From positions 1-64,000 of the IMG/VR virus record IMGVR_UViG_3300005573_000073: a stretch of DNA of 64,000 nucleotides; one strand, given 5' to 3'. The notes under the pieces were generated by a model. It saw nothing but the letters and a program-made list of their open reading frames with translations. It did not search any database and was not told the DNA's origin. Numbering within the stretch: position 1 is the first letter of the stretch; each line of letters starts with the position of its first letter. The position numbers and the translations under genes are program-made. Origin of the DNA: a virus. Positions 1 through 16,165 of the stretch are shown here, in pieces.

Positions 1-437
1 TTAATTAGCAGTTTAATATTTTTCCAATCTAACATTTTAATGAATTCTTCAAATTCTTTTAAGTTTTCTTCAAAAATTAGACTTTCACTAATATTTCTAC
101 GTTTCTTCCAATAATAAATAGCCAAACTTACAATTATAACTGTAGCTATTGAAGTTAACATGCAATATATTAACGCTACCACACCATAAAACAGCCATAA
201 CTTCTCCATTAAAACGGGCAAATGTAAAAATTTACAAATGTTAGTTGTAAACGGTTCAATTAACCATTGAAACAAAAAGTAACCAACAAATGGAACCAAA
301 CCAGTTAATAAAAATAGATTACAAACAGCCCAAAATAAGAAACCAGCAAAGACTCCGACAAACCCAGCTTCCAAATATCCAATAAGCATAAATAAAAACA
401 GAATAAGCATCGAGTAGTCAAGTTTTGGTATTTTCAA
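1..437 (-). CDS. multi-pass membrane protein (3'-truncated by window edge)
   Basis: Open frame read by hand from TTG437/ATG410 off the left end, with several hydrophobic stretches (MLILFLFMLIGYLEAGFVGVFAGFLFWAV...). Confidence 0.6.
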   Translation of the reverse strand, partial: MKIPKLDYSMLILFLFMLIGYLEAGFVGVFAGFLFWAVCNLFLLTGLVPFVGYFLFQWLIEPFTTNICKFLHLPVLMEKLWLFYGVVALIYCMLTSIATVIIVSLAIYYWKKRRNISESLIFEENLKEFEEFIKMLDWKNIKLLI

Positions 438-1486
438 CTTCGTTTACGCTTCTTTACTTTTTTATTAAAATTATCTATGTTAGTTACGATTGTCACGTTT
501 CCTTCCTTCATAATATTTGATAGTTTGCATGCAATTGTATATTCATCGCTTCCAGCAAACAAGACTCCAACCCAGTTTCCATCCATGTCAAAGATTGGAC
601 TTCCCGAGTCTCCACCAGTACTGAATCCTTGCTTATGTATAAGAATGCAGTCTGTAAAAGTTGCTATTCCACGTGAATACTGCACTGTGCCAGTCCAACT
701 TGTAGAAACAACTTCCCCTTCAATTGTTAATCCTGTTGTTCTTCCATTTTTCTGAACTTTATCTCCAACATTCGGTTCCCTGTAACTACCGAAAGCAGTT
801 GGAATATTTAAACATGAAACTTCAAAATCATTATTTAACGGAGTGCCAAAACTAATATCCACCTTGTTTAATGATGCGTCTCTTTTAATAAACTTGTAAA
901 CACGATGAAAAGCGTTTCTGAAAGGACATTTAAAATCGTTAAATTTAACTTCGACAAAATGATGAAGACGTGCAATAGCATCATTAACAGTGCCACCATC
1001 ATACGGGCTTGGTTGAATCCACAAGTCACCTATACTTGCTTTGTTTTCGAGTGCTCCGCAATGATTGTTAAGTCCAATATATAATTGTCCAGTGTCTTTA
1101 TCTCTAAAGAAACCAGTTAACGTGCATGCTGTGCAATTCACGTGGCAAGCACTAACTCCCGCTTTCACTGGTCTATACTTTTTTTTCGGATCATCAACTA
1201 AAGCTTTTACCACACCAATCTCTACTACATCTGTTTCAACATGTTCCAACGTTGAATCAACATTAATTTTATAAAACAGATATTGAGGTAAAACATCTTC
1301 AGGTGCAAGCTGTGACTTCGGAAGTTTTTTACTCACATAAATCCTAAAAACTTTTGTGTTAGGAACTACTTGCCCATTTTTTATACGAGGCTGAAAATCA
1401 TTATCAAACGCAACAACATTCGGAAATTTTTTCAACTGTTTCCAAATTCTCTTAATATCTTCTTCAGGAAATATCATTACAATCAC
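434..1486 (-). CDS. trypsin-like serine protease
   Basis: Triad motifs NNHC (His), KVDIS (Asp) and GGDSGSP (Ser); KNGRTTGLT motif; own upstream promoter. Confidence 0.85.
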   Translation of the reverse strand: MIVMIFPEEDIKRIWKQLKKFPNVVAFDNDFQPRIKNGQVVPNTKVFRIYVSKKLPKSQLAPEDVLPQYLFYKINVDSTLEHVETDVVEIGVVKALVDDPKKKYRPVKAGVSACHVNCTACTLTGFFRDKDTGQLYIGLNNHCGALENKASIGDLWIQPSPYDGGTVNDAIARLHHFVEVKFNDFKCPFRNAFHRVYKFIKRDASLNKVDISFGTPLNNDFEVSCLNIPTAFGSYREPNVGDKVQKNGRTTGLTIEGEVVSTSWTGTVQYSRGIATFTDCILIHKQGFSTGGDSGSPIFDMDGNWVGVLFAGSDEYTIACKLSNIMKEGNVTIVTNIDNFNKKVKKRKRS

Positions 1487-1528: not shown

Positions 1529-1536
1529 AAAAATTT

Positions 1537-1731
1537 TGTGGATGTGCGGAAATAATGTATTTTTCGCAACAGATTATTGGTTTCACATTAAATTTGTGGT
1601 AACATTATCCCGCACATTTTCCACACTTTTTATGAACCGTTTTATGGGTGCTCATGGATGTGTTTTTCACAAAAATGTATTGTATCACACCACATTTGTG
1701 GTAACACCACAAGCACTTTCCACACGATTCA
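1537..1731 (-). ncRNA. TIGR-like stem-loop guide array 1 (two dual-spacer units)
   Basis: Minus strand: GTTA-CCA-[CAAATGTGG]-TGTGAT-ACA-[ATACATTTT]-TG and GTTA-CCA-[CAAATTTAA]-TGTGAAA-CCA-[ATAATCTGT]-TG, each enclosed by an inverted-repeat stem; starts about 14 nt after the stop of the Nop-domain gene. Confidence 0.85.
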
Positions 1732-1744
1732 CGTTGTTCACTAT

Positions 1745-2689
1745 TTAAATTTTTGCAACTCTATCACATAGGTCTAGAGGATGAATCCACTCGTTTGGTT
1801 TCAACGGAACGAGGTTTCTAACGTGTTGTGGCGGTGGAATTGGCAGTCTGTAAATTTCTTGGTATTTCTCCCATAATATCGAAATAAAAGTTTTTATGAA
1901 TCGTCTTCGTGAAAGATCTAGAACTGACTGAATGTAAGTTTTAGGATGAAGTTTTTTAGCTTCTTTTCTTGTTGTTGCACCAAACCATTTTTTTAAATAT
2001 TTTGCATATTTTTTTCCTTTCATGTCTTCGTGGTAGCGTCTCCATAATTCGTAGCATTTACCTTTCCTTTTTACAATTGATTCAAAGATTATGTAGAAAG
2101 TTTTTCGGTATTCCTGATTTCCAACAACTGACTTATGTTGAACTCTACGATAAGCAAGTCCAGTGGCATCGTCAACTGCGTAACCACATAGTTTAATTAG
2201 GGAACTACGGGATTTTGGTGTGTAAAATTTTACTGTTTTAAATTGTGGTTTAGTTAAAAGTTTACCTTCGTGTTTCTTTTTCATGTATAATGGAACTTCT
2301 AATTCTGCCCAGTATGGTTCGAAATACGCTATAAGTTTTGCTGCTGTGAGAATACTTATGCCTTTAATTCCACGTAACCATTCAGTCCACAGTCTATGTT
2401 GTTCCACGATTGGAGTCATTTCTTTTATAAGTGATTTTTCTAGGTTTTTTATACCTAGAATTTTTCGTTTTCCAACTCCTTCTACTGCTTCGTTTCCTTC
2501 AACCATGCCTTTTTCAATTATGAATCCTAAACGACATGCTGGCATTGTTTCCATTTTAATTGCTCGCATTCGATTTTCAAATGCTATACGTGCTGACTGC
2601 ATATCTTTAAATTTACTGACTAAACTTCGCAGATGAAGTAATTGTTCTTCAGTGATGCCTGAAGGTAACATTTTTGTCTGATTCTTCAA
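1745..2689 (-). CDS. tasA: TasA-like Nop-domain RNA-guided DNA-binding protein (IS110 C-terminal-like, no RuvC/HNH)
   Basis: N-terminal coiled coil LRSLV..ARIAFENR, LRGIKGISILTAAKLIA, SLIKLCG, RRVQHKSVVGNQEYRK, RRRFIKTFISILW; no DEDD RuvC domain and no IS110 catalytic SG motif; adjacent dual-spacer array. Confidence 0.8.
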   Translation of the reverse strand: MKNQTKMLPSGITEEQLLHLRSLVSKFKDMQSARIAFENRMRAIKMETMPACRLGFIIEKGMVEGNEAVEGVGKRKILGIKNLEKSLIKEMTPIVEQHRLWTEWLRGIKGISILTAAKLIAYFEPYWAELEVPLYMKKKHEGKLLTKPQFKTVKFYTPKSRSSLIKLCGYAVDDATGLAYRRVQHKSVVGNQEYRKTFYIIFESIVKRKGKCYELWRRYHEDMKGKKYAKYLKKWFGATTRKEAKKLHPKTYIQSVLDLSRRRFIKTFISILWEKYQEIYRLPIPPPQHVRNLVPLKPNEWIHPLDLCDRVAKI

Positions 2690-2705
2690 AATTTTTCACT
2701 TCCAT

Positions 2706-3647
2706 TTAGTTTTTCTCAAGAAATAACTTGCATAATTCTATAAACATTGCCATTTGTTCATCTAGATTGCTTGTAAGCACCATACGATGTTTCTCAAAAA
2801 CGTTTGTTCCACCGCAGACATCTCCAACCACCCATATTTCATGGGGCTTTATTATTTTACATGTTTTCACAAAGTGTTTCCAGTATTCATATAGTCTTTT
2901 GTTTGCTTCAGTTAAAGATTTAGAATCTTCAATTTCGCTTCCTAACGAAAACTTTGGTGGAGCAACAGCAGCAAGTTCTCCAATGTGAAGGTCAGCGATT
3001 GCAGCCACAATAAAAACAGCATTTTTAACCATTGTCATAAAATAGTCTTCAATTTCAACTTTACCTGTTGAAACGTATTTTTTGGTTGGTTCTTCAGCTT
3101 CGTAAATTTTCTTTTCAAAATGGTTGTAAACAAACGGTTTATAAAGCCATGGTTGCGTATGTATCCGCCCATCTTTTGTTACAATTATAAAGTATGCTCC
3201 AATGTCTGGTTGAAAATGTGCAAAGTTTGCTAATGCTTGTTGATACTCAATAAAAGCTGTCCAAGCAGGCAGATTAATAACTCTGAAAGATTCGTCATCA
3301 AGTGATCCACGTGTAGTGTGACCGTGAGCAGCTACAAGCATGCATATGTCTCTTGGCAATGCTCCTTTGAACATTTGTATCATGAATTTTTCTGCATCTC
3401 GCTGTGACACTGTGTATGGATTTATTGAAGCTAATCTGCGTGGATGAGTTACAAATGCTTTTTTTCCATTGTGAAGATCTTCAAGACTCCATTGAGCTTT
3501 GTGTTCAGCGTTAAAACCAAAATTTTTTAGTTGTGAAACTAGTTGCGATCCAATCATAGTGTCGTATGATCCATGGACATTTGTTCCATCCCAAATTTTT
3601 ATTTTGGGAATCCATTTCTTTTTATTTTTTGTCGTCATATTTATCAC
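2706..3647 (-). CDS. circularly permuted calcineurin-like metallophosphoesterase
   Basis: Motifs in order III (GTNVH), IV (VTH), V (AHGH), then I (IADLHIG) and II (VVGDV). Confidence 0.75.
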   Translation of the reverse strand: MINMTTKNKKKWIPKIKIWDGTNVHGSYDTMIGSQLVSQLKNFGFNAEHKAQWSLEDLHNGKKAFVTHPRRLASINPYTVSQRDAEKFMIQMFKGALPRDICMLVAAHGHTTRGSLDDESFRVINLPAWTAFIEYQQALANFAHFQPDIGAYFIIVTKDGRIHTQPWLYKPFVYNHFEKKIYEAEEPTKKYVSTGKVEIEDYFMTMVKNAVFIVAAIADLHIGELAAVAPPKFSLGSEIEDSKSLTEANKRLYEYWKHFVKTCKIIKPHEIWVVGDVCGGTNVFEKHRMVLTSNLDEQMAMFIELCKLFLEKN

Positions 3648-3651
3648 TTTA

Positions 3652-4038
3652 TTACTTATATTTTCCTCCCTTATAAACTTTGCGGTTTTTTTCCATGCAA
3701 TCTTTAACGTTTGGATGTGTTACAGTGATTAGAACTCGATCTTGCATTCCGCTTATGGTTATTTTTGACTGGTTTATTAAATAGAAATTTGCAAAATCAT
3801 CTGGCAATATAAACGCTAAATAAGATTTAGTTTCAATGTATGGAACAAGTTTAACGTTAAATGCATAATTTAACCAGTTTGGTGATGGTGAGGGAGTAAC
3901 GCCAATCGTGCACCAATCTAAAGCGTAAACTGCAAGAACCTGTGCTTTACTTTTCCATTTTTTATAATCTATCAATTTTTTATCAATTATCACAGTTTTA
4001 CTCAAGTTCTGCTTCAATTTTTTCTTCACCTTCATCAT
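3652..4038 (-). CDS. hypothetical protein
   Basis: 128-aa ORF in a co-directional gene run. Confidence 0.6.
   Translation of the reverse strand: MMKVKKKLKQNLSKTVIIDKKLIDYKKWKSKAQVLAVYALDWCTIGVTPSPSPNWLNYAFNVKLVPYIETKSYLAFILPDDFANFYLINQSKITISGMQDRVLITVTHPNVKDCMEKNRKVYKGGKYK
3670..3689 (-). promoter_or_regulatory. promoter of the phosphoesterase-tasA-array 1 operon
   Basis: AAAACCGCAAAGTTTATAAG, identical over 20 bp to the promoter at 5218-5237. Confidence 0.7.
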
Positions 4039-4282
4039 CTTTTTTACCTTTAATTTTATATTCTGTTAAAGTTGCATTTTCAAGTCCACGTCCTTTTTCA
4101 AGAAACTTTTGAAAGTTTTTAGGTTTAGAAGCTGAACCCCATTCCACATCTGAATCAGCAATTTTCGCCCAGCAATGACTACACAAGCCAATTCGACTTT
4201 CCTCAAATATTAAATAAACTGTAATCGGATCATCTTTATGTTTACATTTTTTATGAATATGCATTTTCGCTATATCACACAT
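3998..4282 (-). CDS. Cys/His-rich hypothetical protein (probable start MCDIAK)
   Basis: CSHC and other Cys/His residues; the ATG at 4282 overlaps the end of the upstream ORF. Confidence 0.55.
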   Translation of the reverse strand: MCDIAKMHIHKKCKHKDDPITVYLIFEESRIGLCSHCWAKIADSDVEWGSASKPKNFQKFLEKGRGLENATLTEYKIKGKKDDEGEEKIEAELE

Positions 4283-4442
4283 GTTTCTTTCCTTCCTTCT
4301 TACACATTTTTGCAAAACATTTATTATCAAATTTAACGATTACCAGTCTGAACGTGCAATGGCATTTGGGGCACTCGTAATATGTTCCACATTTTTCACT
4401 TGTTACTTCCTTTAATGTTGAATCATCATGCGGACATTTCAT
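4275..4442 (-). CDS. small zinc-ribbon protein (55 aa, not in ORF track)
   Basis: Hand translation MKCPHDDSTLKEVTSEKCGTYYECPKCHCTF... Confidence 0.55.
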   Translation of the reverse strand: MKCPHDDSTLKEVTSEKCGTYYECPKCHCTFRLVIVKFDNKCFAKMCKKEGKKHV

Positions 4443-4636
4443 TGTTTTTCCTCCTCTGTTTTTTCAATATACATCCTAACAATTTTTTCTTCCACAAAAT
4501 TTTTAATTATTTTTTCAACTTCATCTTCCAAAGCTGAACCATTCTCTTTTCTTACTTTCTTGTTTAACTCGTATTTTTCCCGAAGTTTTCTAGCGATTTC
4601 AACAGCTAAACAATGCCAAAAATTTTCATAATCCAT
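4439..4636 (-). CDS. hypothetical protein
   Basis: 65-aa ORF tightly packed between neighbours. Confidence 0.5.
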   Translation of the reverse strand: MDYENFWHCLAVEIARKLREKYELNKKVRKENGSALEDEVEKIIKNFVEEKIVRMYIEKTEEEKQ

Positions 4637-4891
4637 TTAATGATCTTCCTCGTTGGCTTTTGTATGCACTTTAGTCAAACAATATAAGCATGCTTCTTTA
4701 AGCACTTTTGTTCCATCCACCTTTTCTAGCCATTGAATACGTTTTGTGCCACCACATGTTAAACAACACGTGCTTGATCTCACAACCTTCACAGTATTAT
4801 TTTCTTTTTGATTGGTTGCTTTATCATTGTCCAACCGAACTTCAAACGTGGAGTATTTCTTTCCATTATTGTTATTTGAGTTTTCGACCAT
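4637..4891 (-). CDS. small zinc-binding protein
   Basis: CLTC...CLYC pairs; promoter at 4931-4948. Confidence 0.55.
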   Translation of the reverse strand: MVENSNNNNGKKYSTFEVRLDNDKATNQKENNTVKVVRSSTCCLTCGGTKRIQWLEKVDGTKVLKEACLYCLTKVHTKANEEDH

Positions 4892-4993
4892 GTGTTTTTC
4901 ACTTCTATTTAAATAGTTTCACCGTTCCGTTATATAAACCTTTCGGTTTTTTACCATACAACCTTTTTTCTTAAAAATAATTACTTCATGTTT

Positions 4994-5194
4994 TGTGGAT
5001 GTGCGGAACAATGTATTTTTCACATGACTCCTCTGTATCACATAACTGATGTGGTAACATTATCCCGCACATTTTCCACACATGTTTGTTTTATGTGAAC
5101 CGTTTTATGGGTGCTCGTGGTGTATTTTTCACAGTGCTCAACCGTATCACATTATAGTTTTGGTAACACCGCAAGACACTTTCCACAGTTCACA
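4994..5194 (-). ncRNA. TIGR-like stem-loop guide array 2 (two dual-spacer units)
   Basis: Direct repeat of array 1 with different spacers: CCA-[AAACTATAA]-TGTGAT-ACG-[GTTGAGCAC]-TG and CCA-[CATCAGTTA]-TGTGAT-ACA-[GAGGAGTCA]-TG; own promoter upstream. Confidence 0.85.
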
Positions 5195-5217
5195 ATTAAT
5201 TATTTGACACAAACTCA

Positions 5218-5237
5218 CTTATAAACTTTGCGGTTTT
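5218..5237 (-). promoter_or_regulatory. promoter driving guide array 2
   Basis: AAAACCGCAAAGTTTATAAG about 24 nt before the first stem; no ORF lies between it and the next promoter. Confidence 0.7.
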
Positions 5238-10356: not shown

Positions 10357-11063
10357 ATTTTAACAACTCGCAAATCCTCATCATTGTCAATTTCAAACCA
10401 GTAATCATTTACTTCAACCAATTTACATATAAATTTTTCTCCCTTATTTATCATTAAATTAAATGCGTATTCATACCAATTATTAACTTTTCCTTTTTTA
10501 ATTATTTCTTTCAATGTTTCAGTTAAACATTTTACCGAAGATATTTTAGCTATTCCCGTATATTCACCAAACGATTCCCAACGTCCAATTTTTTTACTTA
10601 ACCTTTTAAAATGTCCTAAATTATCAAGTTCAACCTTCATTGCTTCCTCATCATATTCATGATAAAACAACTGATCATCTGTTTCCTGTGTTCCAATCCA
10701 TCTTTCAACAACAAGAATGTTTCCTTCTTCTTTAACTAATTTTTTAATTATGGATTCTGAAAATAACACGTCACCATTAATTATTAAAATTTCATCATTA
10801 AAATAATTAATTGCACAACATAATGAAACAATATTTTCAGTAAAGAAAAACGGATTATAAACAACTTTAACTTTAAGTTTTTTACATTGTTTTTCAACCA
10901 ATTCATGTTTAAACCCTGAAACAACAATAATTTCATCAACATATTTCTTCAGTATTTTTACTTGATGATTAAGTATTGTTTCCCCGTTAATTTTTACTAG
11001 AGATTTTGGCAAATTTAAATTTAAACGTTTACCTGATCCAGCAGCTAAAATTATTGCCTTCAA
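10341..11063 (-). CDS. NTP-transferase (LicC/phosphocholine cytidylyltransferase-like)
   Basis: MKAIILAAGSGKRL, PKSL, INGDV, WFEIDNDEDL. Confidence 0.85.
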   Translation of the reverse strand: MKAIILAAGSGKRLNLNLPKSLVKINGETILNHQVKILKKYVDEIIVVSGFKHELVEKQCKKLKVKVVYNPFFFTENIVSLCCAINYFNDEILIINGDVLFSESIIKKLVKEEGNILVVERWIGTQETDDQLFYHEYDEEAMKVELDNLGHFKRLSKKIGRWESFGEYTGIAKISSVKCLTETLKEIIKKGKVNNWYEYAFNLMINKGEKFICKLVEVNDYWFEIDNDEDLRVVKIWFKK

Positions 11064-14000
11064 TCAAAACATTCCTTCATATAATCTTCAATTGTTTCGC
11101 ATGGAACAATTTTAATAGTGTAATCTGAAGGAATAACGTCATGTTCATAATTCTTTTTGGGAATGCAAACTTTTTTGAAACCCATTTTTTGTGCTGCAAA
11201 AATCTTTTCGTTTGTTCCCCCGATTGGAGTTACTATAATTTTGTTATCTACTCCAATGTTAATTTCACCTGTTACAGCTACATCTTGCTTGATTTTTTTA
11301 TTTTTTAAACTTGAAATAACGGCTAAAGTCATGGCAACACCTGCTGATGGTCCATCAACACCAATTTCTTGAGCAAAATCAACATGCGTATGAAAATCTT
11401 GACTAATATCCACATTAAACATTTGAAGAATAACATGGCGAACTTTAGCTATGCTATGCTGCATCCAACTTGATTGTTCAGTAGCGACACCAGTAACAAT
11501 GAAACTGCCACTCTTCTTTTTTTTACATTTAACCACGGATGCACGTATTGGAAGAACTGAACCAAGCATTTCAGTATATTCATCCTCATCTTCTTCCTGT
11601 ATCATTGAAACAGCTAAACCATAAATTTGTCCAATTTTAGGTTTAGAATTTGCATCTATAATTTTATACAATTGATCTTTTAAGAGGCGTTTCTCAAGAA
11701 TCTGTTTGGCAATACTTTTACAGTGAACTGAAAAAGCCTCATCAACATATTTTTTATCCACAAATAGTTTTCCATCATTTTGAGCTAGAATACTTGCCAC
11801 TTTTATTATACTAATCATCGGTCTAAACTGGCAAGTTAAACGGTCATTTCGTCCACTTTTAATCCTTGCAATGTCAATTATAGCTTTACATGCTTCACGA
11901 CTAAACGGTAAAAGATTAAAACGTTTCGTTTCCTGTGCAATAAACTGCACATATTTACGTCTATTTTCAACAGTATTAGGCATATCATTATTCATATAGA
12001 CAATTCGTCCATATCCAGCTATACGATCAACAAGTGCCTTATGCATTTGAGGCAGAGAATCCAAGTTGCCTGCACCAATAAAGAAAAACATTGCAGGAAC
12101 AGGTTCAGTTGAAACAGCCATAGCTGCTGTATTATGACAAAGAATCCCATTAGCAATAAAACATTCGTGTTTTGTTGAAATATCAAAGACTTCTTCTTCA
12201 TCTCTGTCAATAATTTTCTTTATTCTATGTAAAGTTAATAATCCTTGATTTCTTAAATGATTGACTTTAAAATCTTCAGAAGAGTCTTTCCATATAGTCA
12301 ATTTATACTGTGAATTTAGAGATTTGAATGCTTTCTTTCCATTCAATCTTCCAGAAGATATTGATGCCTCAATTCCAATTATGGAAAAAAGTGTTTGAAA
12401 ATCTTCAAGAAGTTTTCTATTAACGGAACCAAATTGTGTAATCATTCTTCTATCTTTTCTATACCTACATCCATCACTTCTTTTATATCCTCGTATGAAT
12501 GCTTTCACTTTACTCTCTGGTAAAAAGAATATCCATTCAGGAATTCTTTTATTAAATGCTCCACTTACAAATCCCAGATTTTTCATTTTCCTAACAAGTT
12601 CAGTAGAATAGAGTCTCATATCTCCATTGACATTCTTTAAAGATGCAGTAACATTAAGTTTTTTGGCATAAGCATAAACAAAACTTTTGCTTTCTTCTGA
12701 TTTACCAGTTGCCAGTCCAACGATTTTATTTGCTTCAAACCATCCATTACCAATCCAATATCCATAAAATTCTAAATCATTTTCAGACTCTGATTCCATA
12801 TCTATTTTGGGCACTTCAATTTTATTAATGGTTATGCATTTTCCATGTTCAATGGTTGTTGGAACAAGCGGTTGTTTACTATGAAGGTTGTTATATCTAA
12901 ACAAGGAATGGTCTTTCGTGAGTTTAATGGATTTCCCATTAATCAATTCTATATATTTAATTGGTTTCTTCCCTCTTCTAAACACTTTCAAAACTGGTGT
13001 CCACATCAACTTTTTACATTTAAAATCCATATGTTCAGGGCAAAGAACCTCAATCTTATTACCATTCTCGAAAGACGCAACTAATTCATTAAATTGTCTG
13101 TATCTGATATTCCCATTCTCTTTGAAGAATATCATTGTATCACCAGTGATACTATCACCTCCATGAAACAAACTTCTTAACGCAATAGGCAATTGACCAT
13201 CTTCCAAAACAGTTAACAATGTAATAGCTTCAGCACCAGTTAAATTTTTAACTTCATCAATAAACAAAACACCCAAATGAGCACGATGCACATCACCAGC
13301 ACTAACACGTTGATGTTCAGGAGTGCCGAGACCTCCCGACTGGTAAGGATCCCATGCTATTGAGTTTCCAGTGAAACTTAACTTACCATTTTTCTCTATC
13401 AAAAAGTTATGATTTTTTGTTTGGATACACCATACTTTTCCCTTATATTTTATTTGTTTTATGTTTGATGTTTTTACGTATCCAGCTTTTTTTGAAAGGT
13501 TTACTCTGAAACCAATTCTCCATTTTCCATTATTTCTTCTTTTATCTTCTGAAATACTTATAGAATATCCCAGTTTTAATCCTAGTTCAATGATATTATC
13601 TCTTAATTGTAATGATGTAGTATAGTAAGTAGTCATTTTTTTATTACCATCACCCAACATTAATGTTTCGAAAAGACAAGATAATTTTTCTTTTGGAAGA
13701 TTTAGATACTCCGATGGGATAAATCTTTCATGCTGGTATCTTCCGCACTTCATTAGTATATTAACAATACTTTTATCAGTAATAATACATTCCGTTTTAT
13801 TCCAAAAATGTTTGACGTTCATTTGTCGAAGCAACAGTTCTATTTCGGTAGGAAATTTCTTCTGACTTATTGCAACATAATTTCTTTGTTCTAAATAATA
13901 GCCTTCTGAAATGAACCATCCAATTAAACGAAGCAAATTACAAGTTATTTTTTCATTATCTCGTCCAATCCAATTTCCATTTTGAGGAATAAAGAATCTA

Positions 14001-16165
14001 CTTTTTTCCATCACCTCGGTTATTTTGTTATACTGAAGAGGAAGTTTTATTTTATCACAGTAACTCCTAGGTCTATATAATAGCTTATGGTCTGGAGTAA
14101 CTTGAAAATTCAATCCTTTCTTTTCATTTAAAGACAACATCGGTCCATTATAATCATAAACAAATATTTTGTCAACTGGTTGTAATTCTATTTGCTCTGT
14201 TTTTGGATTTAATGTGAAAACTATATCTCCTTCTTTGACAAACTGCCATTCCTTGATTCCATTAGTAGTAAATAATCTAGTATTTTCATCTAAACATCCG
14301 TATAATTGTGCACTTCCATGTCCTGTTGCATCTACAAAAGGTGCACGTCCTAGACTGTTATCCACTATTAGTTTGGGTGCGGTTGTTCGTTGCACTCCAC
14401 CTATGCTGTAGCCTCCTTGTTGCACGTTTCCCCCGAACAATTTTCCAATTTGCCAAATAAAAAATGTTACAAACAATAATGATCCGCCAATACTTATTAG
14501 CATTATGTTTGTTAAAACAGCATTAAAGAAACCGATTAAACTTGATAGAAGTATAATGTTAACTATTCCAATACCAAGAGTTAATGCTCCAAACCCGCCG
14601 AGAACAAACATTAAAAGTCTCATACCCCATTTTTTCCAAAATGATTTTTTATCTTCAACTTTATATTTTTGCATTACGATTTCTTTGCCTTTTCCTGCTG
14701 GATGAATACTTATTCTTGGTTCAGAAGGTAATCGTGGATTGTGCCAGCATAAAACATCTGTTAATTTAATACCTCGTTTTTTATATTCTTCTGTTAAGTA
14801 TTCGGCTAATGCTCTCCCAATCAACGACTTGCCTGTGTTATGAGATACAATTCCATTAGCAATAAAGTGATGACGATAAGGAACTTCAATATCATAAACA
14901 GTTGCAACCCCCATTGGTTTAATTGAAATTACTCTTTCCCACAATTGATTGCGTCTTTGTCTTCGTTTGGAAACATATTTAACCAACTGTTCTAACTTTT
15001 CTTGTTTTCTTGTAGTCTTAAACCCTATATATTTAGCAAATCGTTCTATTGATTTTCCTCTTTGTATTCTAAGATGTCTTCCTTTCACAACTGAGTATAT
15101 ACCAAACCTAAGAAGAAGTATTTGAATATCTCGAAGTAATTCTATTCTTTTTTCTGCTTGTTCACATGTAATGCCATAATGACCTCTTCCTTTACAATAA
15201 ACAGAACCATCGCCAGTAAAGAACCACGATAGAAAAGATGAAACAACTGAATCTGGAGATTGCATTATTCCAATAGGAACTCTTTTTTCTTTGAGAAATG
15301 ATAACTTATCGGCTATCCATTTTCTATTTATTTCTAATATATGGACATCAATGGTTCTATTAAATCCGTGAGCCACTCTAGTATATAATGATGGTTCAAC
15401 ATCAAATGATTCACGAATTATTTGTTGAAGTTTCGGAATTAATTCTCGTTCATTATCGGCAATAAAAAGTGTTAAAGCATATTTATCTATACTTCCATCT
15501 GCCAAAGCATAACCAAGTAATCCACCAATTTTCTCGTCTATAAATCCATAATAGTTTTTCTTCCAACATGGTATTTTTGTGACAACTCGCAGATAATCTG
15601 TTGTAGAAAGTTCATCAAGTCTTTTCCAGCCATTTTTCGTAAGAAGCGGATGATTATATGTTCCCACTATCCGTTTTCCACTTTCAGTTATTATCTCCAT
15701 TACTGGTTGATTTTCATATCTATGAAATACTGTCGCTATACCTTTATACTTTTCAGACATTTTTCCAAATTGATATACTGGAACATGAATATCATCAAGA
15801 TGAGTTTGACCTAAATTCTCAAGTTTGTTAAATGTGCCATCTCTTAAAGCAATGCGTTCATCACCTACAAGACAACCTGCTGCCCCGAGCATTAATACAA
15901 ATGGTCCTGCTGGAAGCATTTCTTTCAAGTTTTTATCTGGATTTTCTGGATTTTCAAATTTTTTCCACCATTTCTTTTTTCTTAAATATAATAATTTATT
16001 TATCCATTCATCAATACATAAATGAATCTCTTTAAGAACATTGTCTTGACCGATAACATAATCAATCATTCGTTTTGGAAGTGGAAATCTTTTTAACGTT
16101 TTAAATTTTTTCCAATTCCATTCTTTTGTCGCTTCACCGAAAAAATCATCTTCCTTTTCAGTCAA
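11060..16165 (-). CDS. lonB: archaeal LonB ATP-dependent protease with three inteins (about 703 aa after splicing)
   Basis: VIGQD, Walker A GAAG/TGKS split by an intein, two TM helices, DPYQSGGLGTPEHQRV, LFIDE, catalytic GVDGPSAG and EKI. Confidence 0.9.
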   Translation of the reverse strand: MTEKEDDFFGEATKEWNWKKFKTLKRFPLPKRMIDYVIGQDNVLKEIHLCIDEWINKLLYLRKKKWWKKFENPENPDKNLKEMLPAGPFVLMLGAAGCLVGDERIALRDGTFNKLENLGQTHLDDIHVPVYQFGKMSEKYKGIATVFHRYENQPVMEIITESGKRIVGTYNHPLLTKNGWKRLDELSTTDYLRVVTKIPCWKKNYYGFIDEKIGGLLGYALADGSIDKYALTLFIADNERELIPKLQQIIRESFDVEPSLYTRVAHGFNRTIDVHILEINRKWIADKLSFLKEKRVPIGIMQSPDSVVSSFLSWFFTGDGSVYCKGRGHYGITCEQAEKRIELLRDIQILLLRFGIYSVVKGRHLRIQRGKSIERFAKYIGFKTTRKQEKLEQLVKYVSKRRQRRNQLWERVISIKPMGVATVYDIEVPYRHHFIANGIVSHNTGKSLIGRALAEYLTEEYKKRGIKLTDVLCWHNPRLPSEPRISIHPAGKGKEIVMQKYKVEDKKSFWKKWGMRLLMFVLGGFGALTLGIGIVNIILLSSLIGFFNAVLTNIMLISIGGSLLFVTFFIWQIGKLFGGNVQQGGYSIGGVQRTTAPKLIVDNSLGRAPFVDATGHGSAQLYGCLDENTRLFTTNGIKEWQFVKEGDIVFTLNPKTEQIELQPVDKIFVYDYNGPMLSLNEKKGLNFQVTPDHKLLYRPRSYCDKIKLPLQYNKITEVMEKSRFFIPQNGNWIGRDNEKITCNLLRLIGWFISEGYYLEQRNYVAISQKKFPTEIELLLRQMNVKHFWNKTECIITDKSIVNILMKCGRYQHERFIPSEYLNLPKEKLSCLFETLMLGDGNKKMTTYYTTSLQLRDNIIELGLKLGYSISISEDKRRNNGKWRIGFRVNLSKKAGYVKTSNIKQIKYKGKVWCIQTKNHNFLIEKNGKLSFTGNSIAWDPYQSGGLGTPEHQRVSAGDVHRAHLGVLFIDEVKNLTGAEAITLLTVLEDGQLPIALRSLFHGGDSITGDTMIFFKENGNIRYRQFNELVASFENGNKIEVLCPEHMDFKCKKLMWTPVLKVFRRGKKPIKYIELINGKSIKLTKDHSLFRYNNLHSKQPLVPTTIEHGKCITINKIEVPKIDMESESENDLEFYGYWIGNGWFEANKIVGLATGKSEESKSFVYAYAKKLNVTASLKNVNGDMRLYSTELVRKMKNLGFVSGAFNKRIPEWIFFLPESKVKAFIRGYKRSDGCRYRKDRRMITQFGSVNRKLLEDFQTLFSIIGIEASISSGRLNGKKAFKSLNSQYKLTIWKDSSEDFKVNHLRNQGLLTLHRIKKIIDRDEEEVFDISTKHECFIANGILCHNTAAMAVSTEPVPAMFFFIGAGNLDSLPQMHKALVDRIAGYGRIVYMNNDMPNTVENRRKYVQFIAQETKRFNLLPFSREACKAIIDIARIKSGRNDRLTCQFRPMISIIKVASILAQNDGKLFVDKKYVDEAFSVHCKSIAKQILEKRLLKDQLYKIIDANSKPKIGQIYGLAVSMIQEEDEDEYTEMLGSVLPIRASVVKCKKKKSGSFIVTGVATEQSSWMQHSIAKVRHVILQMFNVDISQDFHTHVDFAQEIGVDGPSAGVAMTLAVISSLKNKKIKQDVAVTGEINIGVDNKIIVTPIGGTNEKIFAAQKMGFKKVCIPKKNYEHDVIPSDYTIKIVPCETIEDYMKECFD
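12131..13153 (-). mobile_element. intein 3 in LonB (341 aa)
   Basis: SITGDT...LTKDH...ILCHN/T; YWIGNG and YKRSDG. Confidence 0.85.
13364..14296 (-). mobile_element. intein 2 in LonB (311 aa)
   Basis: CLDENT...VTPDH...FTGN/S; LIGWFISEG and LMLGDG. Confidence 0.85.
14837..15874 (-). mobile_element. intein 1 in LonB (346 aa, LAGLIDADG endonuclease)
   Basis: CLVGDE...IVSHN/T inserted in the P-loop; LLGYALADG and FFTGDG motifs. Confidence 0.9.

What the first reader, a model, noticed from the sequence alone, without database searches (positions are those of the whole stretch)
1537..5237. Nuclease-less TIGR-Tas-like RNA-guided system with split stem-loop guide arrays in an archaeal virus
Seen: four hairpin units in two loci (1537-1731, 4994-5194). 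Each carries two variable 9-nt segments in a near-invariant frame, GTTA-CCA-N9-TGTGA(T/AA)-(A/C)C(A/G)-N9-TG(T/C)GAAAAA. Spacer pairs A/B are CAAATTTAA/ATAATCTGT, CAAATGTGG/ATACATTTT, CATCAGTTA/GAGGAGTCA and AAACTATAA/GTTGAGCAC. The scaffold is conserved between the loci while the spacers differ. The adjacent 314-aa protein has the coiled-coil plus Nop/IS110 C-terminal fold but no nuclease or recombinase domain. Known: TIGR-Tas systems use tandem 9-nt spacers, one per DNA strand, and TasA lacks a nuclease. Inference: this is a programmable DNA-binding system, and the split two-hairpin loci plus the partner enzyme look like an undescribed variant.
Basis: partly seen in the sequence, partly recalled or inferred. 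Interest (0 to 1): 0.95.

Follow-up and report, generated by a model that had tools for sequence, protein, structure and literature searches.

The report
Archaeal-virus TIGR-TasA guide-RNA system
This tailed archaeal virus carries a real example of the RNA-guided DNA-binding TIGR-Tas systems published in 2025-2026, so the kind is known, but its guides are scattered as hairpin-framed mini-genes while all relatives use plain repeat arrays, and an unexplained enzyme-like gene always sits beside the guide-binding protein.

Summary
Four hairpin units lie on the minus strand, with cores at 1665-1704, 1562-1602, 5018-5057 and 5127-5166. Each reads CCA-N9-UG...(A/C)C(A/G)-N9-UG and is closed by a covarying 12-21 bp stem. 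Paired units share 90-93% of their scaffold but only 6/18 spacer bases.

The 314-aa ORF (1745-2689, minus) is a nuclease-less Tas protein. Its model matches TasR 9MTY at VIA Z 17.9, TasH at 17.5, IS110 at about 13 and Nop5 at 5.3. NCBIfam TIGR_Tas_endo gives E 1e-21.

The locus is therefore a stem-loop TIGR-TasA system. That kind is already published, including arrays on both sides of tas, archaeal-virus hosts and TasA acting as a transcriptional repressor. This scan has also noted TIGR-TasA loci in at least 16 other genomes.

Three features look unusual:
- All seven related loci use 35-37-nt dual-repeat arrays. This genome has five stem-loop units plus a two-unit dual-repeat mini-array with the same loop repeats.
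- The guides sit in four small loci; three have their own BRE/TATA-like promoter and one trails the tasA operon.
- A 313-aa, possibly permuted, metallophosphoesterase-like gene sits next to tasA in 8/8 loci, six of them independent.

No target was found, and self-matches are at chance level. Verdict: a known kind with variant features, of moderate interest.

The parts
5220..5235 (-). BRE/TATA-like promoter that would drive guide locus 2 as its own short transcription unit
   Evidence: This is one of 11 matches to AACCGNAANNTTTATA in the window, against 0.41 expected by chance. It lies about 25 nt upstream of the first hairpin.
5096..5195 (-). Stem-loop tigRNA unit U4. The core is 5127-5166, with spacer A AAACTATAA and spacer B GTTGAGCAC.
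4990..5085 (-). Stem-loop tigRNA unit U3. The core is 5018-5057, with spacer A CATCAGTTA and spacer B GAGGAGTCA. A T-rich tract follows.
   Evidence: A roughly 97%-identical strain in another metagenome shows a different spacer A and inner stem at this position, seen only in contig loose ends.
3672..3687 (-). BRE/TATA-like promoter of the operon: MPE-like gene, then tasA, then guide locus 1
   Evidence: There is no room for another promoter between the tasA stop (1745) and the first hairpin (1733).
2706..3647 (-). 313-aa partner gene, possibly a circularly permuted metallophosphoesterase. It has DxH and GD motifs near the C-terminus and an HGH motif in the N-terminal half.
   Evidence: It is adjacent to tasA in L001-L007 and L093, in both gene orders, with arrays interleaved. 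The invariant residues are listed. All fold evidence is weak.
1745..2689 (-). tasA: a 314-aa nuclease-less TIGR-associated protein made of a coiled coil and a Nop domain
   Evidence: The AF2 model has pLDDT 78.6. Foldseek's top hits are TasR and TasH. VIA gives Z 17.9 to 9MTY residues 112-322. NF052498 gives E 1.3e-21. The profile matches 9MTY at E 1e-5.
1636..1733 (-). Stem-loop tigRNA unit U1. The core is 1665-1704, with spacer A CAAATGTGG and spacer B ATACATTTT.
1534..1627 (-). Stem-loop tigRNA unit U2. The core is 1562-1602, with spacer A CAAATTTAA, spacer B ATAATCTGT and loop repeat UGUGAAACC. A T5 tract and the next promoter follow.
3652..4891 (-). Five small ORFs between guide locus 2 and the operon. 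There is no evidence that they belong to the system.
   Evidence: They have no Pfam, PHROG or PADLOC match and no homologue beside tasA in the related loci.

Best explanation
This is a TIGR-TasA system of a tailed archaeal virus.

Shown:
- A nuclease-less Tas protein is encoded next to hairpin-framed guide units.
- Each unit presents two 9-nt variable segments in a CCA-N9-UG / (A/C)C(A/G)-N9-UG frame.
- Three of the four guide loci follow a BRE/TATA-like promoter, and the fourth trails the tasA operon.

Inferred from published TIGR-Tas work:
- A TasA dimer binds one guide.
- Spacer A pairs with one DNA strand and spacer B with the other strand of an adjoining 9-bp half-site, so the target is 18 bp and reads A followed by the reverse complement of B.
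- Having no nuclease domain, the complex sits on the DNA and blocks transcription or replication.

The targets are not in the virus itself, so they are most likely host or rival-element DNA.

The stems look like a lineage-specific way of closing a guide that stands alone or in a pair. In an array, the neighbouring edge repeats do that job. The edge repeat UGUGA|ACCA of the relatives is split here into a 3' UGUGA(AAAA) and a 5' (GUU)ACCA, joined by 12-21 bp of helix.
For: Protein:
- Searches place it in the Tas family, with TasR/TasH >> IS110 >> Nop5.
- The structural alignment starts after the nuclease domains of TasR (residue 112) and TasH (residue 64).

Relatives:
- Seven metagenome loci and one archaeal-MAG contig encode TasA at 46-65% identity, with 35-37-nt dual-repeat arrays and different spacers.
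- The same genome has a dual-repeat mini-array with identical loop repeats.

Promoters.

Function of TasA as an RNA-guided repressor: Xu et al. 2026. Stem-loop TasA structure: Guan et al. 2026.
Against: - No RNA data are available. No RNA run holds this sequence, so transcription, processing and RNP formation are inferred.
- No natural target was found.
- The score to NCBIfam's Tas model is below its curated cut-off (77.6 against 100 bits).
- The A + rc(B) target geometry is my inference from the description of the PlTasA structure. It is not stated explicitly in the texts I could read.
- The family keeps a roughly 35-aa C-terminal tail with invariant PQH and WIHP motifs. Published stem-loop Tas proteins are said to lack a long C-terminal processing loop, so how these hairpin units mature is open.
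Confidence: 0.8

Rival explanations
1. This is a two-component RNA-guided enzyme. TasA with its guide finds the DNA, and the conserved 313-aa metallophosphoesterase-like partner acts there in trans as a nuclease or phosphodiesterase. That would replace the fused HNH or RuvC domains of TasH and TasR.
For: - The partner is adjacent to tasA in 8/8 loci, six of them independent (L004/L005 and L002/L093 are near-duplicate pairs), and in both gene orders. Arrays lie before, between and after the two genes.
- The pair sits by the terminase block in the relatives but has moved together to another place in this genome.
- The invariant D219-x-H221, G275-D276 and H108-G-H110 are typical metal-ligand motifs.
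- Ten of the top 50 VIA rows are calcineurin-fold enzymes, aligned through their C-terminal two-thirds to residues about 10-190.
- Atlas feature hits score 0.95 to viral clusters in which 14-16% of members carry PF00149.
- Pfam Metallophos positions 3-58 hit the C-terminal piece of one homologue at E 0.16.
- hhalign places the GD motif on motif II of SbcD.
Against: - Every fold or sequence signal is below significance: the model has pLDDT 66, the best Z is 4.1, and hhalign gives 1% probability.
- The partner family has about four times as many 90%-identity clusters as the TasA clade (57 against about 14). It probably also occurs without tasA and may be a conserved viral gene beside which the TIGR module sits.
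- No interaction was tested.
Confidence: 0.3
2. The element is an IS110-like bridge-RNA element. Each roughly 200-nt hairpin doublet would be a two-loop bridge RNA, with a target loop and a donor loop, and the two doublets would bracket a mobile cassette of about 3.6 kb.
For: - There are two doublets of two hairpins in fixed order, about 200 nt each. They are direct repeats flanking tasA, the partner gene and five small ORFs.
- The Tas fold is related to the IS110 RNA-binding domain at Z about 13.
- The module has changed position relative to the relatives.
Against: - The protein has no DEDD/RuvC domain and no serine Tnp domain. NF033542 scores 14 bits against a cut-off of 140.
- No guide matches any site in the genome better than shuffled guides do, so none matches the cassette ends.
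- Solo and dual-repeat units with the same frame exist elsewhere in the genome.
- The relatives have ordinary arrays.
Confidence: 0.03
3. The virus regulates itself. The guides would target its own promoters or its own guide loci to time gene expression.
For: - TasA represses transcription in reporter assays (Xu et al. 2026).
Against: - The best self-matches of all seven guides, in both half-site orders, have 3-5 mismatches. That is the same as for shuffled spacers.
- A 12-nt junction-spanning match like that of U1 arises in 19% of shuffles.
- Spacer 9-mers are neither enriched nor depleted in the genome.
Confidence: 0.07
4. The element is a box C/D-type RNA-guided RNA modification particle. 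The hairpins would be sRNAs that guide 2'-O-methylation.
For: The Nop domain and the two-guide layout are shared with archaeal C/D sRNPs (Faure et al. 2025).
Against: - Similarity to Nop5 is Z 5.3, against 17.9 to TasR.
- There is no fibrillarin-binding N-domain.
- There are no RUGAUGA or CUGA boxes and no k-turn after the 3-nt bulge.
- Rfam finds nothing in the window.
Confidence: 0.02

Closest known systems
Stem-loop TIGR-TasA systems: PlTasA from a Peromyscus leucopus gut contig, BlTasA and MbTasA (Faure et al. 2025, PMC12045711; Xu et al. 2026, 10.64898/2026.09.09.750476; Guan et al. 2026, 10.64898/2026.08.11.744272)
   Same: - The protein is a solo coiled-coil plus Nop protein.
[quoted passage not shown]
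- Guide loci lie on both sides of tas.
- The carrier is a mobile element.
   Different: - Only one or two units occur per locus, spread over four loci and about 75 kb. Three loci have their own archaeal-type promoter; the fourth is co-transcribed with tasA.
- The loop repeat has fixed length and sequence, as in dual-repeat arrays.
- No conserved CUU sits at the stem base.
- The protein keeps a long conserved C-terminal tail.
- Every relative examined uses dual-repeat arrays.
Dual-repeat TIGR arrays with TasA, including the tasParB-tasA operons of Faure et al. 2025 (fig. S14)
   Same: - The relatives (L001-L007) have 35-37-nt periods with alternating 8-11-nt repeats.
- Their arrays lie before, between and after tasA and a partner gene.
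- This genome also has a two-unit dual-repeat array.
   Different: - The partner here lacks the DGFHR motif and any ParB match, and instead shows phosphoesterase-like motifs.
- Most guides in this genome are hairpin-closed.
TaTasR (PDB 9MTY) and SpTasH (PDB 9W04)
   Same: These are the best structural matches. VIA gives Z 17.9 with rmsd 2.7 A over 198 residues at 25% identity, and Z 17.5 respectively. Box C is CCA and box D is UG.
   Different: Those proteins carry an N-terminal RuvC or HNH nuclease. This protein starts at the coiled coil.
IS110/IS621 bridge-RNA recombinases (PDB 8WT6, 9T56)
   Same: They share the RNA-binding fold (Z about 13). Their guides sit in internal loops of hairpins, with two hairpins per RNA.
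   Different: This protein has no catalytic domains, no donor or target match, and more than two units per genome.

Membership tests
TIGR-Tas | Tas protein with a coiled-coil dimerisation helix pair and a Nop-type RNA-binding domain | tested here: met
   The AF2 model has pLDDT 78.6. Foldseek's top ten hits are all TasR or TasH, at E 3e-7 to 8e-4. VIA gives Z 16-18 to them. The family profile matches 9MTY at E 1e-5.
TIGR-Tas | Guide units with two short (8-12 nt) spacers, each preceded by box C and followed by box D | tested here: met
   All seven units of the genome read CCA-N9-UG ... (A/C)C(A/G/U)-N9-UG.
TIGR-Tas | Units arranged as dual-repeat arrays or closed by palindromic stems, next to tas | tested here: met
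   The stems covary. Locus 1 begins 12 nt after the tasA stop. The relatives have dual-repeat arrays flanking tasA.
TIGR-Tas | Spacers vary while repeats or scaffolds are kept | tested here: met
   Spacer identity is 6/18 against 90-93% for the scaffold. The relatives carry different spacers. A close strain shows a different spacer, seen only in fragmentary contig ends.
TIGR-Tas | Score above the curated cut-off of NCBIfam NF052498 (TIGR-Tas RNA-guided endonuclease, equivalog) | tested here: not met
   The score is 77.6 bits against a cut-off of 100, although E is 1.3e-21 over profile positions 1-213 of 215. The model is named for endonucleases, and this protein lacks a nuclease domain.
TIGR-Tas | Guides are transcribed, processed and bound by Tas, and the complex binds DNA matching both spacers | not testable with these tools
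   No RNA run holds the sequence.
TasA subclass | No HNH or RuvC domain N-terminal to the coiled coil | tested here: met
   The first helix starts at residue 14. The structural alignment starts at TasR residue 112 and TasH residue 64. Pfam finds no domain.
IS110 RNA-guided recombinase with bridge RNA | DEDD RuvC-like domain and serine Tnp domain, plus guide loops matching the element ends and the target | tested here: not met
   NF033542 scores 14 bits against a cut-off of 140. There is no N-terminal domain. No guide matches the genome better than chance.
Archaeal box C/D sRNP (Nop5) | Nop5 with a fibrillarin-binding N-domain, and sRNA with RUGAUGA/CUGA k-turn boxes | tested here: not met
   Z to Nop5 3ID5 is 5.3, against 17.9 to TasR. 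No such boxes are seen. Rfam gives no match.
Calcineurin-like metallophosphoesterase (the partner gene) | Motifs DxH, GD, GNH(D/E), H and GHxH on the alpha/beta sandwich fold | tested here: inconclusive
   The motif-like invariant residues appear in permuted order. Only weak matches were found: Z up to 4.1, Pfam E 0.16, hhalign P 0.056 and Atlas features 0.95. The model is poor, at pLDDT 66.
TasParB (ParB-like partner of TasA, Faure et al. 2025) | ParB/DndB-like fold with a conserved DGFHR motif | tested here: not met
   The six aligned homologues contain no DGFHR. Pfam finds no ParB match at E up to 10. The motif was taken from the paper's supplement.

The most novel reading that the evidence does not exclude
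This clade may be a distinct TIGR subtype with two unusual properties.

(a) One TasA would use both dual-repeat and hairpin-closed guides. That would catch the change from arrays to free-standing single-guide genes in the act.

(b) The nuclease-less TasA would work with a separate, always-adjacent, circularly permuted metallophosphoesterase as a trans-acting effector.
Probability: 0.25. Interest if true: 0.75.

Novelty: new variant of a known kind. Interest (0 to 1): 0.5.

Why it matters
The natural role of nuclease-less TasA and the origin of the two guide architectures are open questions in a field that is under two years old.

[quoted passage not shown] Here a single family, at 46-65% protein identity, spans both. 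One genome carries both forms with the same loop repeats and a single tasA. That gives a natural test bed for what the stem is for and who processes the guides.

A partner enzyme embedded among the arrays would, if functional, show how a nuclease-less Tas protein can acquire a catalytic activity in trans.

The compact promoter-hairpin-terminator guide genes are also a simple design for expressing single guides.

Tried and rejected
- I could not fetch contigs of the other TasA or partner homologues, so I could not check whether the partner occurs without tasA.
- **Relatives in viral contigs.** No relative of TasA or of the partner was found there. A scaffold pattern gave 85 single chance hits, none with the full unit.
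- **Targets in the virus's own genome.** The seven guides were tested in both half-site orders. The minimum was 3-5 mismatches, the same as the shuffled null. The self-array match of U1 (12-nt core) and a 14-nt match of U2 at 4319 are within chance after multiple testing.
- **Targets in viral contigs.** U3 gave no hit. The second unit of the dual-repeat mini-array gave two independent hits in unrelated phages.
- **Targets in archaeal genomes.** One guide of a relative found nothing in the archaeal MAG that holds that relative. The U3 target against 371 genomes of that MAG's phylum gave one hit with one mismatch, inside an ORF, where about 0.5 is expected by chance.
- **Spacer 9-mers.** They are not depleted in the viral genome.
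- **RNA evidence.** No RNA holder was listed among the sequencing runs.
- **Family libraries.** Rfam gave no match in the window. PADLOC gave no match for any cassette protein.
- **Fold searches for the partner.** Foldseek PDB and BFVD gave nothing significant.
- **TasA tree.** The backbone is unresolved, so the claim that stems are derived rests on parsimony over the sampled loci, not on a supported nesting.
- **Published locus list.** The related contig names were not found in the held part of the Faure supplement, so I cannot say whether this clade is in their list.
- **Other candidate units.** The GTTACCA sites at genome 83239 and 31122 are not guide units.

Full report
**What is there.**
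All genes in 1-18 kb run on the minus strand, and so do the units. Read as RNA, each unit has this layout:

5' stem arm - GUUA-CCA - N9 - UG-UGA(U/AA) - (A/C)C(A/G) - N9 - UG-(U/C)GAAAAA - 3' stem arm.

A relaxed pattern finds exactly four such cores in the 64-kb window:

| Unit | Core (minus strand) |
|---|---|
| U1 | 1665-1704 |
| U2 | 1562-1602 |
| U3 | 5018-5057 |
| U4 | 5127-5166 |

Both loci fold better than shuffles, at z -4.9 and -3.65. With the core forced single-stranded, every unit is still closed by a two-part helix with a 3-nt bulge.

On five aligned units the closing helix pairs in 94.8% of cells, against 85.7% in shuffles (0/500). Seven pairs changed on both sides. Shifted registers pair at most 62%. 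With five related sequences this is supportive, not proof.

Scaffolds are 90% (U1/U4) and 93% (U2/U3) identical, while spacers share only 6/18 bases.

**The protein.**
ORF 1745-2689 has no Pfam hit. It matches PHROG 4285, annotated 'transposase', at E 3e-16. It matches NCBIfam NF052498 'TIGR-Tas system RNA-guided endonuclease' at E 1.3e-21 over the whole profile, although below the curated cut-off.

An AF2 model built on ten homologues (pLDDT 78.6) gave these matches:

| Match | Result |
|---|---|
| Foldseek top ten | only TasR and TasH, then IS110 |
| VIA to TasR 9MTY | Z 17.9, rmsd 2.7 A, 198 residues, 25% identity |
| VIA to TasH | Z 16-17.5 |
| VIA to IS110 recombinases | Z about 13 |
| VIA to Nop5 | Z 5.3 |

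The alignment covers TasR residues 112-322 and TasH residues 64-309. That is only the coiled coil and Nop domain, after their nuclease domains. The model's first helix starts at residue 14. The protein is therefore a TasA.

**What is already known.**
- Faure et al. 2025 (PMC12045711) described TIGR arrays in dual-repeat and stem-loop forms, and TasA as the commonest effector. They named archaeal viruses among the carriers. They noted stem-loop arrays whose inter-spacer sequence stays repeat-like as possible intermediates.
- Xu et al. 2026 catalogued 2,559 stem-loop arrays, which may lie upstream, downstream, on both sides of, or inside tas. They showed that TasA and dead TasR repress transcription in a guide-dependent way.
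- Guan et al. 2026 solved a stem-loop TasA complex with 9-bp heteroduplexes on opposite strands.

This scan has also noted TIGR-TasA loci in at least 16 other genomes.

**Context.**
The record is a 93,705-bp virus genome. It encodes a large terminase and a portal, and an MCM helicase, a family-B polymerase and a RadA/Rad51-type recombinase.

The motif AACCGNAANNTTTATA occurs 11 times against 0.41 expected, in front of genes. This fits a tailed archaeal virus.

One copy (5220-5235) precedes guide locus 2. Another (3672-3687) precedes the operon of partner gene, tasA and guide locus 1. T-tracts follow both loci.

**Relatives, and the unusual points.**
Seven metagenome loci and one contig binned in an archaeal MAG encode TasA at 46-65% identity. 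L004/L005 and L002/L093 are near-duplicate pairs, so six loci are independent.

None has hairpin units. All have regular dual-repeat arrays of 35-37-nt period. These alternate UGUGAACC with UUGAAAAACU, UGUAAAxCU or UGUGAAU. The arrays lie around tasA, and in L004/L005 they run into its 5' coding region.

Scanning the whole genome showed three further units outside the window:
- a solo hairpin unit with its own promoter at genome 75500-75539 (minus);
- a two-unit dual-repeat mini-array at genome 66159-66244 (plus), which reads UGUGAACCA-N9-UGUGAUACG-N9-UGCGAACCA-N9-UGUGAAACCA-N9-UGCGAACC.

The loop repeats of the mini-array are the ones found inside the hairpin units. The hairpin ends, 3' UGUGA(AAAA) and 5' (GUU)ACCA, are the two halves of that edge repeat.

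One tasA therefore appears to serve seven guides in two formats at four loci. Because every sampled relative has arrays, the hairpin form is most simply a recent change in this lineage. The TasA tree is too poorly resolved to prove the nesting.

A roughly 97%-identical strain in a sediment metagenome shows a different spacer A and inner stem at the U3 position. This is seen only in contig loose ends.

**The partner gene.**
ORF 2706-3647 has a homologue next to tasA in all eight related loci, at 54-70% identity. It occurs in both gene orders, with arrays before, between and after the two genes.

In the relatives the pair lies beside homologues of window genes 47.5-50 kb, near the terminase. Here the pair lies about 45 kb away from those genes, so the two genes stayed together when they moved.

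The partner is not the published TasParB. It has no DGFHR motif and no ParB match.

The invariant residues include D219-x-H221, G275-D276 and H108-G-H110. Several weak signals agree on a metallophosphoesterase whose first two motifs have moved to the C-terminus:
- VIA rows at Z 3.4-3.9 to MJ0936, SbcD, Mre11, purple acid phosphatase and the polymerase small subunits, aligned through their C-terminal parts;
- Atlas feature hits;
- Pfam Metallophos positions 3-58 at E 0.16 on one C-terminal fragment;
- hhalign on motif II of SbcD.

None of these is significant alone, and the model is poor.

The partner family has about 57 clusters against about 14 for this TasA clade. It probably also exists without tasA. 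The held literature has no paper linking TasA to a phosphoesterase.

**Targets.**
I take the target as A followed by the reverse complement of B. In the PlTasA structure, box C lies 5' of each spacer and sits at the DNA unwinding junction. This is my inference, so both half-site orders were tested.

- No guide matches the viral genome better than shuffled guides.
- The earlier idea that U1 points at the guide loci rests on a 12-nt core, which 19% of shuffles reach.
- Scans of viral contigs and of 371 small archaeal genomes gave only chance-level hits.

The targets are therefore unknown and presumably lie in host or rival-element DNA.

**Verdict.**
This is a real TIGR-TasA system, so the kind is known. 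Three variant features deserve follow-up:
- coexisting dual-repeat and hairpin-closed guides in a clade that otherwise uses arrays;
- guides dispersed as small loci, most with their own promoter;
- a constantly linked, possibly permuted, phosphoesterase-like partner.

How the system works is inferred from published relatives. Nothing about expression or binding could be tested here.

Noticed in passing
L094:660-745 (genome 66159-66244, plus strand, outside the window): A two-unit dual-repeat TIGR mini-array sits behind a TTTAAATA promoter-like box. It uses the same two loop repeats (UGUGAUAC and UGUGAAACC) as the hairpin units in the window.
   Followed up: partly
L095:680-765 (genome 75479-75564, minus strand, outside the window): A solo stem-loop tigRNA unit (spacers GAAAAATAC and GAATGGGAA) has its own BRE/TATA-like promoter and T-tracts after it. 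It lies 70 kb from tasA.
   Followed up: partly
L004:1780-1830 and L005:2382-2432: In these relatives a dual-repeat unit is written in frame inside the 5' end of tasA (peptide CEPNGECKTMIVCEP). Protein P0007 has a longer N-terminal extension of the same repeated kind.
   Followed up: no
   Followed up: no
L093 (contig CAYZVE010000040.1) and its genome G001: A related virus contig with the same module is binned in a 1.3-Mb 'uncultured archaeon' MAG. The 371 genomes of that MAG's phylum are all 0.3-2 Mb. This hints at small-genome, DPANN-like archaea as hosts, but binning is not proof.
   Followed up: partly
L001:5938-5960, L002:2949-2975 and window promoters: In the relatives the last edge repeat UGUGAACC overlaps the BRE-like AACC of the next gene's promoter (AACCGCAA..TTTAAATA). 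Array ends and promoters therefore share sequence.
   Followed up: no
window 434-1486 (minus): This is a 350-aa trypsin-like serine protease (PHROG 20754 at E 2e-43, with weak Pfam peptidase hits). It lies directly downstream of guide locus 1.
   Followed up: no
window 37838-39409 and 11060-16165 (minus): Intein and LAGLIDADG signatures lie inside large viral genes.
   Followed up: no
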